Origin: Octopus vulgaris
Lineage: Eukaryota
Reading direction: 5' to 3'
Assembly (NCBI GenBank): GCA_951406725.2
Contig: OX597820.1
Location: forward strand, 74,772,001 to 74,836,000
DNA length: 64,000 nucleotides
This document shows, in pieces, positions 9,844-12,073 of the stretch (positions within the stretch are counted from its first letter, which is position 1; each line of letters begins with the position of its first letter). The notes under the pieces were generated by a model that made no database searches, was not told the origin of the DNA, and saw only the letters and a program-made list of their open reading frames with translations. Made by a program: the position numbers and the translations under genes.

Positions 9844-9946
9844 ATCTATCTATATGTCTGTCTATCTATCTATCTATCTATCTATCTATCTATCTATCTA
9901 TCTATCTATCTATCTATCTATCTATCTATCTATCTATCTATCTATC
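9844..9946. repeat. (TCTA)n microsatellite, 5' flank of the tRNA-Tx1 insertion
   Basis: Direct reading. Confidence 0.95.
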
Positions 9947-10011
9947 TGGCGCAGTGGAAGCGTGCTGGGCCCATAACCCAGAGGTCCGTAAATCGAAACT
10001 ACGCTCTGCTA
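9947..10011 (+). pseudogene. tRNA-iMet: Initiator tRNA-Met(CAT) pseudogene, missing the 5' acceptor strand (nt 1-7)
   Basis: TGGCGCAGTGGAAGCGTGCTGGGCCCATAACCCAGAGGTCCGTAAATCGAAACTACGCTCTGCTA matches metazoan tRNAi-Met from U8 to A73. Anticodon CAT is at 9972-9974 and the diagnostic ATCGAAA T-loop is present. G53 appears mutated to A, and there is no CCA. Confidence 0.93.
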
Positions 10012-10028
10012 AGTGAACTTTCTGTTTT

Positions 10029-11240
10029 GCTGCCAACACCCGTTAAAAGGAGGGCTGAACATGCTGTGGATGATGATGCACAGACACGCGCTGAGACTGC
10101 GACATCTCCGGCTCTACGTAGACGACGGTGAAGAGGTGTGGTTGCCGTTTGTGAGGCGTGCTTTCCCGCAGCTCGTCTCCATGACCGAACTGCAGTCGTG
10201 GATCAAAAAGGAGCCGAGGAAGGGCGAATGGCACCGCGAGTGTCGCGTTGCTCTCACGCAACAATGCCGTCCCGGGTCGACTTTGAGCGACTTCAGCACA
10301 ACCAAAGCAGTCTATAGGGGATTAGTGGTGGGGAAGTACGACGACGATCTCGGGGCGAACCTGGGCGTCGACGAGGAATACCTAACCCGCCTGTTCAAGA
10401 CGACTTTCGGGCCGGGACCTTTGGACAACTTCCAGAGATCCCTGACTTGACAGTGCTATTGAGAAGCGCTACCCGTTCGGGATAAGTTCTACAGGCATGG
10501 CACGAGAAACACTGTGCCGGCCTGCCCGAAATGCGGTCATAGCGACGAAACCGTTCTGCACGCCCTCGTACAGTGTCCAACAATTTCCGATTTGTGGGCC
10601 TATGTCGAGCGACTGCTATCGTGGGTGGGACGAGTCGGTTTATCAATCGAGTCTATCGTGAATATTGTCGCGCCTCCTGCCTTGAAAGGGGAAGGAAGAG
10701 CCATTTTCATCGTACTTGTGGCTATGGCGAAAGAATGTGTATGGTGTACGCGTCTGAAAGTTCTAGAGACACTTTCTTCTCTGGTCAATCTCTCATCAAC
10801 TTCTTCAAGTATCGCATGAAAAGGAAGGTTAGAGAGGGAAGTCTTGTCTAGTGAATGTTTCAAAAGAGATGGGTAAATGTAGTAAGGATGGCACGTGTGA
10901 ATGACGGAGCCAGCTTGAGCATAATTCTATGAACCAAAAGAGAAAAAGAAAGGAAAAAACAGTCACTGTAATGTATTGTTTTGCATGACATTATTGCCCA
11001 AGGTTACCGTGGTCATTTCCGTAGGCTTTTCTTTCCAAGTATAAACTTAAACGGTTTTTCCTTTTTACATAGACATTTCTGTGATACACGATCCCTATTG
11101 ATCAGCTTTTTTTTTTTCCACGATCACTTTTGATCGAAATTTGACCCACTGTTTTTTCTCATCGTCTTTCCAAAAAGAAAGGCCCTACTTTGTATTTTGT
11201 CCCCTCTGTGTTCAGCCCTGTGTGGCCAGTAAAGAAGCAT
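10029..11240 (+). mobile_element. 5'-truncated Tx1-clade (L1 group) non-LTR retrotransposon: ORF2 C-terminus plus 3' UTR
   Basis: CQHPLKGGLNM..RHALRLRHL post-RT motif and a CPKC..DETVLHALVQC CCHC knuckle, with stops and frameshifts. T-rich 3' UTR ends in (ATCT)n. Confidence 0.85.
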
Positions 11241-12073
11241 ATCTATCTATCTATCTATCTATCTATCTATCTATCTTTATCTATCTATCTATCTATGAAT
11301 GTCTGTTATATATTTATGTGTGTGTGTATATATATATATATATGATATATATATATATATATATATATATATATATATATATATATATATATATATATAT
11401 ATATATATATATATATATATATATATATATATATATATATATATATATATATATATATATATATATATATATATATATATATATATATATATATATATGT
11501 ATATATATATATATATATATATATATATATATATATATATATATATATATATATATATATATATATATATATATATATATATATATATATATATATATAT
11601 ATATATATATATATATATATATATATTATATATATTATGTATATATATATGTATGTATGTATATATATATATATATATATGTATGTATGTATATATATAT
11701 ATATATATTATGTATGTATATATATATATATGTATGTATGTATATATATATATATGTATGTATATATATATATATGTATGTATGTATGTATATATATATA
11801 TATATATATATATGTATATATATATATGTATGTATGTATGTATATATATATATATGTATGTATGTATGTATATATATATATATGTATGTATGTATATATA
11901 TATATATATATGTATGTATGTATGTATATATATATATATGTATGTATGTATGTATATATATATATATGTATGTATGTATGTATATATATATATATATATA
12001 TATATATATATATATATATATATATGTATGTATGTATGTATATATATATATGTATGTATAGATATATATATAT
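11240..12073. repeat. (ATCT)n followed by a long (AT)n/(ATGT)n array
   Basis: Direct reading. Confidence 0.95.

What the first reader, a model, noticed from the sequence alone, without database searches (positions are those of the whole stretch)
9844..11296. Pre-tRNA-iMet::Tx1 LINE chimera co-integrated in a (TCTA)n array
Seen, in order: (TCTA)n, tRNA-iMet nt 8-73, a 17-nt non-tRNA stretch ending in TTTT (10012-10028, no CCA), the Tx1 ORF2 3' part and UTR, then (ATCT)n. Established: L1-group RTs form chimeras such as U6-L1 by switching template onto Pol III RNAs ending in oligo(U), and tRNA head plus LINE tail is SINE architecture. Inference: the Tx1 RT jumped onto an unprocessed pre-tRNA at its terminator U-tract and stopped 7 nt short at the acceptor stem. 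That would be a snapshot of proto-SINE formation that keeps the A box and a one-mismatch B box.
Basis: partly seen in the sequence, partly recalled or inferred. Interest (0 to 1): 0.72.

Follow-up and report, generated by a model that had tools for sequence, protein, structure and literature searches.

The report
Pre-tRNA captured by microsatellite-targeting LINE
A single decayed insertion in a TATC repeat joins most of an unprocessed initiator-tRNA copy to the last 1.2 kb of a LINE retrotransposon, likely because the copying enzyme jumped from one RNA to the other; it is one of dozens of such fusions in this genome, and it likely cannot spread as a new SINE because a transcription stop signal sits at the joint.

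Summary
The locus reads (TATC)n, tRNA-iMet nt 8-73, trailer, 1.2 kb of an L1-group (likely Tx1) LINE, (TATC)n. The trailer comes from tRNA genes in a C24 cluster and is absent from 29 of 29 other LINE copies. The junction is single-copy, so this is a chimeric retrocopy, not an amplified SINE. (1) The TTTT is not the donor terminator, which lies 2 nt further on. (2) The acceptor stem is no barrier: 25 of 30 tRNA chimeras reach nt 4 or earlier. (3) It is a poor proto-SINE: T4 at the junction, nine more T-runs, and a G53A B-box change. The class is genome-wide: 65 of 169 U6, 7SL and tRNA copies carry a retroelement partner. This is the only one with the TATC-LINE itself. The scan has already reported such chimeras, and this LINE's TATC targeting, on other DNA of this genome. 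The empty allele could not be tested.

The parts
9844..9947 (+). Left (TATC)n microsatellite, target array; abuts tRNA nt 8 with a 1-nt T overlap
9947..10011 (+). 5'-truncated tRNA-iMet(CAT) copy, nt 8-73 (standard numbering); lacks the 5' strand of the acceptor stem
   Evidence: 98.5% to donor gene; Rfam tRNA model positions 8-63, 25.8 bits, under the gathering score; not called by ARAGORN
9947..9957 (+). A box, identical to donor
   Evidence: box definition recalled
9991..9999 (+). B box with G53>A at 9991; breaks the G53-C61 T-stem pair
   Evidence: alignment to donors; numbering and box definition recalled
10012..10026 (+). Pre-tRNA 3' trailer, identical to two iMet genes of the C24 cluster; ends 2 nt before their T6 terminator
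10025..10028 (+). Junction T4: trailer TT plus LINE TTT with a 1-nt overlap; predicted Pol III terminator
10026..10929 (+). 3' part of LINE ORF2 (to the zf-RVT C-terminus), broken by a stop at 10448-10450 and a 4-nt deletion near 10768
10930..11240 (+). LINE 3' UTR with T-rich tracts; ends without poly(A) directly in TATC
11241..11297 (+). Right (ATCT)n array (target and/or LINE 3' terminal repeats)

Best explanation
This is a single-copy, decayed chimeric retrocopy: the 3' 1.2 kb of a (TATC)n-associated L1-group (likely Tx1) LINE is joined to a 5'-truncated unprocessed pre-tRNA-iMet, likely inserted in one event when the LINE reverse transcriptase switched template. Inferred steps: the endonuclease nicked the (TATC)n array and primed cDNA on the LINE RNA. 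After about 1.2 kb the cDNA 3' end (A-rich, copied from UUU) annealed to U residues at the 3' end of a pre-tRNA from the C24 iMet cluster, and the enzyme copied trailer and tRNA. The insertion was then resolved at nt 8 against the array, as an ordinary 5' truncation. The junction lacks CA(T) relative to the donor end. Either the RNA was trimmed or terminated early (and perhaps U-tailed) at CUGUU, or the switch was guided by the 5-nt CAUUU match and slipped. Pol III would stop at the junction T4, so the copy is likely sterile as a SINE.
For: Trailer found in only 5 places: 2 C24 genes, 2 C9 copies that are themselves a duplicated pre-tRNA::SINE chimera, and this locus. 29 of 29 other LINE copies lack it. 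Only the locus itself spans the junction among 40 scored hits. No TATC lies between trailer and LINE, whereas tandem LINE copies are separated by (TATC)n. The upstream 1 kb has no match to donor loci and is unique. All 6 full-length LINE 5' ends seen abut (TATC)n. Ages are compatible: LINE part 34 of 775 private changes with codon positions 6/9/3, i.e. no third-position excess; head 1 of 79, P = 0.13 or 0.06. The LINE reads CA-TTT at the junction, matching the donor end CA-TTT; this 5-mer occurs 6 times in 6202 nt. The same architecture recurs in 65 of 169 small-RNA copies and 9 of 16 more Lys copies. Precedents: U6-LINE chimeras of several clades (PMC4476161 section 10); U1/U2 heads on Tx1 (PMC4494074).
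Against: No target-site duplication can be read inside a microsatellite. The empty allele and orthologue were not obtained (inconclusive). The junction is not at the donor's present T-tract. None of the 11 deletions in 8452 nt of older copies is 3 nt long, so a later 3-nt loss is not favoured. The head is less diverged than the LINE part, though not significantly. No other small-RNA head was found at 73 further 5' breakpoints of this LINE family, so the habit is not shown for this family beyond this case. Tx1 membership rests on domain make-up and target preference, not on a tree with reference Tx1 elements. In human cells U6/L1 chimeras arise by RtcB ligation, not by switching (PMC6789731 passages).
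Confidence: 0.7

Rival explanations
1. RNA ligation before retrotransposition: a pre-tRNA cut in its trailer (2',3'-cyclic phosphate) was ligated by RtcB to a 5'-OH LINE RNA fragment, and the chimeric RNA was inserted by TPRT.
For: Shown for human U6/L1 (PMC6789731 passages). The join falls inside the trailer rather than at the terminator.
Against: Ligation needs no homology, yet the join sits at a TTT preceded by CA (128 TTT starts and 6 CATTT in 6202 nt). Pre-tRNAs end in 3'-OH (recalled). 22 of 30 tRNA chimeras here have T>=4 at the joint, which fits primary 3'-OH ends.
Confidence: 0.12
2. Two separate events: the LINE inserted first, and a tailless pre-tRNA retrocopy later primed at a nick exactly at its 5' junction.
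For: The head is less diverged than the LINE part (1 of 79 against 4.4-5.6%, P 0.06-0.13). This LINE family re-inserts in the same arrays. Pre-tRNA retropseudogenes exist in human (cited in PMC4476161).
Against: No TATC remnant lies between trailer and LINE, unlike the tandem insertions seen. It needs a nick at one exact base.
Confidence: 0.1
3. A functional proto-SINE: a Pol III-driven, LINE-tailed unit able to retrotranspose.
For: A box intact, B box one change. A very common SINE in this genome has a 41-nt tail 81-85% like this LINE's 3' end, so such a partnership is possible.
Against: Single copy after about 4-6% decay. T4 at the junction plus nine more T>=4 runs before the 3' end. The change hits B-box G53. 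At 1.3 kb it is long for a Pol III unit.
Confidence: 0.04
4. A resident tRNA gene into which the LINE inserted downstream (tRNA-gene targeting), with the 5' end lost later.
For: Some Tx1 families target multicopy RNA genes such as U2 (PMC4494074).
Against: (TATC)n replaces nt 1-7. The flanks are unrelated to the donor genes. The rest of the trailer is not found 3' of the LINE. The family sits in TATC, not beside tRNA genes.
Confidence: 0.04

Closest known systems
U6/L1, U6-L2, U6-RTE and U6-SINE chimeric retropseudogenes (PMC4476161: passages; section 10)
   Same: U-ended Pol III RNA in sense orientation fused 5' of a 5'-truncated LINE in one footprint; 5'-truncated heads are common in platypus
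   Different: Head is a pre-tRNA with trailer; partner is a microsatellite-associated L1/Tx1-group element in an invertebrate; no TSD readable
Human tRNA/LINE-1 chimeras (PMC11838501: abstract; passages)
   Same: tRNA sequence co-inserted with an L1-group LINE
   Different: The 21 human cases are mostly tRNA halves in antisense (twin priming); this one is sense, near full length and carries the genomic trailer. That paper's supplementary table was not seen and may hold sense cases
Tx1-Mar elements with U1/U2 heads and SINEU (PMC4494074: parts 1, 3, 4 of 5)
   Same: Small-RNA sequence added at the 5' end of Tx1 elements, ascribed to template switching
   Different: Those are Pol II snRNA heads on amplified families; this is one non-amplified pre-tRNA head
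Kibi (TC)n, Koshi (TTC)n and crocodilian (TTCC)n/(TTTC)n Tx1 families (as described in PMC4494074)
   Same: Microsatellite-associated L1/Tx1-group LINE
   Different: Motif is (TATC)n; no tree with those families could be built
RtcB-ligated U6/L1 RNA (PMC6789731: passages)
   Same: Same end product
   Different: Needs a cyclic-phosphate end; the join here shows T/U homology instead

Membership tests
Small-RNA/LINE chimeric retrocopy (U6/L1 type) | Cellular small RNA in sense, directly fused 5' of a 5'-truncated LINE | tested here: met
Small-RNA/LINE chimeric retrocopy (U6/L1 type) | Head derives from a gene elsewhere and lacks that gene's flanks | tested here: met
   donor trailer on C24; no upstream flank homology
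Small-RNA/LINE chimeric retrocopy (U6/L1 type) | One integration footprint (TSD or empty allele enclosing both parts) | tested here: inconclusive
   (TATC)n on both sides and no TATC inside; TSD unreadable; read laying not decisive; left flank unique, so no empty paralogue
Small-RNA/LINE chimeric retrocopy (U6/L1 type) | Join at the RNA's terminal U-tract | tested here: inconclusive
   join is 2 nt before the donor T6, but on T/U homology
SINE2 (tRNA-headed SINE) | Amplified from a master: many copies with one junction | tested here: not met
   1 copy
SINE2 (tRNA-headed SINE) | Intact A/B boxes and no internal Pol III terminator before the tail | tested here: not met
   G53A; 10 T>=4 runs, the first at the junction
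SINE2 (tRNA-headed SINE) | Pol III transcription | not tested
   no RNA data laid
L1-group non-LTR retrotransposon | ORF2 with APE endonuclease, RT and C-terminal zinc-binding domain, closest to L1 ORF2p | tested here: met
   Pfam Exo_endo_phos, RVT_1, zf-RVT; L1 ORF2p E 2e-58 against R2 2e-20
Tx1 clade | ORF1 with zf-CCHC rather than Transposase_22 | tested here: met
   weak zf-CCHC (E 0.003-0.004, under the curated cut-off), no Transposase_22; link to Tx1 from PMC5203782 passages
Tx1 clade | Target sequence preference | tested here: met
   6 of 6 full-length 5' ends in (TATC)n; 32 of 74 5' breakpoints, internal breaks included; weaker in the older subfamily: 9 of 28 3' ends and 3 of 25 5' ends
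Tx1 clade | RT phylogeny groups with reference Tx1 elements | not testable with these tools
   no named Tx1 reference was returned; ORF1 comparison with a fish relative not significant
Functional tRNA gene | Complete cloverleaf with acceptor stem | tested here: not met
   nt 1-7 replaced by TATC; fold -18.0 against -27.6 kcal/mol with the acceptor stem lost; ARAGORN finds none

The most novel reading that the evidence does not exclude
In this genome reverse transcriptases of several LINE clades, Tx1 included, routinely jump onto nascent U-ended pre-tRNAs by pairing with their last bases (here CAUUU). Because the jump copies or re-creates the terminator, most products are born sterile as SINEs (22 of 30 with T>=4 at the joint). 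SINE birth would then be limited by this terminator filter and not by the supply of chimeras, and the few terminator-less chimeras would be the real proto-SINEs.
Probability: 0.3. Interest if true: 0.62.

Novelty: new variant of a known kind. Interest (0 to 1): 0.4.

Why it matters
Template switching from a LINE onto a tRNA is the long-proposed first step in SINE origin (PMC5786205 passages), yet my searches found no paper describing sense pre-tRNA-plus-trailer/LINE fusions. This genome holds dozens of independent examples with traceable donors, so junction rules and the terminator filter can be tested. This copy extends the partners to a site-preferring L1/Tx1-group element but is itself a dead end. 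A practical point: 14 of the 30 best-scoring tRNA loci fetched (13 automatic, 1 by eye) are such fusions, so tRNA gene counts here are likely inflated.

Tried and rejected
Empty allele and orthologue: sequencing-run search and read laying. The contigs of three runs are fragmented at this repeat, no listed piece bridged the junction, and the raw-read run laid 0 reads, so there is no verdict. Empty paralogue: the left flank is unique. Amplified family: rejected. Trailer belonging to the LINE: rejected. Acceptor-stem stop: rejected as a general rule. Other captures by this LINE family: none at 73 other 5' breakpoints, none among 64 other partner calls or 9 more. These samples favour well-conserved, near-full-length RNA copies, and only 40 of 177 iMet candidates were scored. 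Tx1 naming through protein databases gave no named reference. Rfam miRNA hits nearby are microsatellite artefacts below the gathering scores. Schmitz 2004 is not held and was seen only as cited. Non-canonical Pol III termination as the cause of the short trailer: only the abstract of PMC3141230 was seen, not tested. One partner call (L029) is probably a microsatellite artefact, and about ten chimeras visible by eye were missed by the partner library; counts are left as the script gave them.

Full report
Observation. An ATCT x26 array runs straight into nt 8 of tRNA-iMet. 9947-10011 is 98.5% identical to a genomic iMet gene, with one change, G53A in the B box (numbering recalled). There is no CCA. 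ARAGORN calls no gene, and the same span folds at -18.0 against -27.6 kcal/mol, with the acceptor stem lost.

The trailer. A search with one mismatch allowed found the tRNA end plus trailer in 5 places, with 0 for the backwards control. Two are full-length genes in a C24 cluster (11 Met and 1 Asn genes in 20 kb). Two on C9 are an inverted duplicate of another chimera, pre-tRNA plus SINE, joined at the T-tract. The fifth is this locus. In 29 of 29 other LINE copies the bases before 10026 are LINE sequence. The donor reads CTGTT-CA-TTTTTT, the LINE reads CA-TTT-GCTG, and the window reads CTG-TTTT-GCTG. The T4 is therefore a junction product with a 1-nt overlap, 2 nt short of the donor terminator. 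The junction does fall on one of only 6 CATTT 5-mers in the 6202-nt element, which matches the expected end of the primary transcript. A homology-guided switch with slippage, and a switch onto a trimmed or U-tailed end, both fit. Later loss of 3 nt is not favoured (0 of 11 deletions in older copies are 3 nt long). An older chimera with a similar trailer (L155, 3 of 15 differences) ends at the same position, which is weak support for a recurrent RNA end there.

The LINE. Full-length relatives are 6.2 kb. ORF2 carries APE endonuclease, RT and zf-RVT, and ORF1 a weak zf-CCHC. The best solved relative is L1 ORF2p (E 2e-58; R2 2e-20). CCHC-type ORF1s in non-mammalian animals are consistent with Tx1 (PMC5203782 passages). 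No named Tx1 reference could be obtained, so Tx1 is likely and not shown. All 6 full-length 5' ends seen abut (TATC)n, and tandem copies are separated by (TATC)n. The older subfamily shows this less (9 of 28 3' ends, 3 of 25 5' ends). The window copy is old: end branch 0.056 against about 0.003-0.015 for most young copies, and 34 private changes in 775 nt, spread 6/9/3 over codon positions, with a stop and a 4-nt deletion. One change in the 79-nt head is compatible with that age (P 0.13 or 0.06).

One event or two. No TATC lies between trailer and LINE. The upstream flank matches no donor locus and is unique. Only the locus itself spans the junction among 40 scored of 413 candidates. This favours co-integration and excludes an amplified family as far as that search reaches. 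A TSD cannot be read in a microsatellite, and public runs gave no verdict on an empty allele.

Context. Family and DNA searches for U6, tRNA and 7SL show that such fusions are common. After removing duplicates, 65 of 169 copies have a retroelement starting within 45 nt of the RNA end: U6 27 of 47, 7SL 8 of 23, iMet 14 of 55, other tRNAs 16 of 44. One of these calls is probably an artefact, about ten more chimeras are visible by eye, and the iMet set was enriched by its queries. 9 of 16 further Lys copies also carry partners. Most partners are a ~50-nt stem-loop tail (38 of 65) or SINEs. The trailers differ, so the events are independent. The TATC-LINE itself is the partner once, here; no small-RNA head was found at 73 other 5' breakpoints of the family. 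Eight chimeras use a SINE whose 41-nt tail is 81-85% like this LINE's 3' end, which hints that enzymes of this group switch onto Pol III RNAs more often. Of 30 tRNA chimeras, 25 reach nt 4 or earlier, so the acceptor stem is no barrier; its 3' strand is copied first in any case (inference).

Proto-SINE? The copy has ten T>=4 runs, the first at the junction; T>=4 is the canonical Pol III terminator (PMC3141230 abstract). It also has a B-box change and has left no progeny in about 4-6% of decay. It has SINE architecture but fails SINE membership. 22 of 30 tRNA chimeras share this defect. The terminator-less minority are better proto-SINE candidates.

Known systems. U6 chimeras with L1, L2, RTE and SINEs (PMC4476161, passages and section 10). 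Human tRNA/L1 chimeras, mostly antisense halves (PMC11838501, abstract and passages; supplement not seen). U1/U2 heads on Tx1-Mar and microsatellite-targeting Tx1 families (PMC4494074, parts 1, 3, 4 of 5). RtcB ligation as the rival mechanism (PMC6789731 passages). Template switching as a route to SINEs (PMC5786205 passages). An octopus repeat annotation lists L1-Tx1 and U-L1 classes without describing chimeras (PMC13282606 passages). Searches returned no description of sense pre-tRNA-plus-trailer/Tx1 fusions; subscription papers and Repbase were not searchable. Earlier notes of this scan report the same chimera class, the TATC targeting and the Tx1-like SINE tail on other DNA of this genome. 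They are unchecked AI notes. I had reached these points before reading them, and took two paper ids and the U-tail idea from them.

Verdict. A real, single, dead chimeric retrocopy; co-integration by template switching is likely (0.7). It is a new variant of a known kind. Interest 0.4, carried mostly by the genome-wide pattern rather than by this copy.

Noticed in passing
window 29916-30818: A second, more diverged 5'-truncated relative of the same LINE (79% to the young reference) between TATC/TCTG arrays; no small-RNA head.
   Followed up: partly
window about 12066-12300; L093 downstream of U6: A copy of an abundant SINE whose last 41 nt are 81-85% like the 3' end of the TATC-LINE, a candidate Tx1-group-mobilised SINE.
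   Followed up: partly
L176-L205 (best RF00005 hits): 14 of the 30 best-scoring tRNA loci fetched are pre-tRNA::retroelement fusions, many full length with terminator and so possibly usable as new tRNA genes.
   Followed up: partly
L199:1501-1590 (- strand): A tRNA-Lys copy ending in CCA and flanked by a ~14-nt direct repeat, probably a retrocopy of mature tRNA, unlike the trailer-bearing chimeras.
   Followed up: no
L004/L005 (C9:71902475-71903357): Inverted duplicate of an iMet::SINE chimera with the same trailer as the window's head, joined at the T-tract.
   Followed up: partly
L149, L155, L185, L190, L200, L205, L175: tRNA chimeras with at most T3 between tRNA and partner: better proto-SINE candidates than the window's element.
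   Followed up: no
L239-L250: 8 of the 11 best-scoring 7SL loci outside the C5:143-145 Mb cluster carry a retroelement partner by the automatic call.
   Followed up: partly
L068, L077, L079, L081: Head-to-tail tandem LINE copies separated by (TATC)n, i.e. repeated insertion into one array.
   Followed up: no
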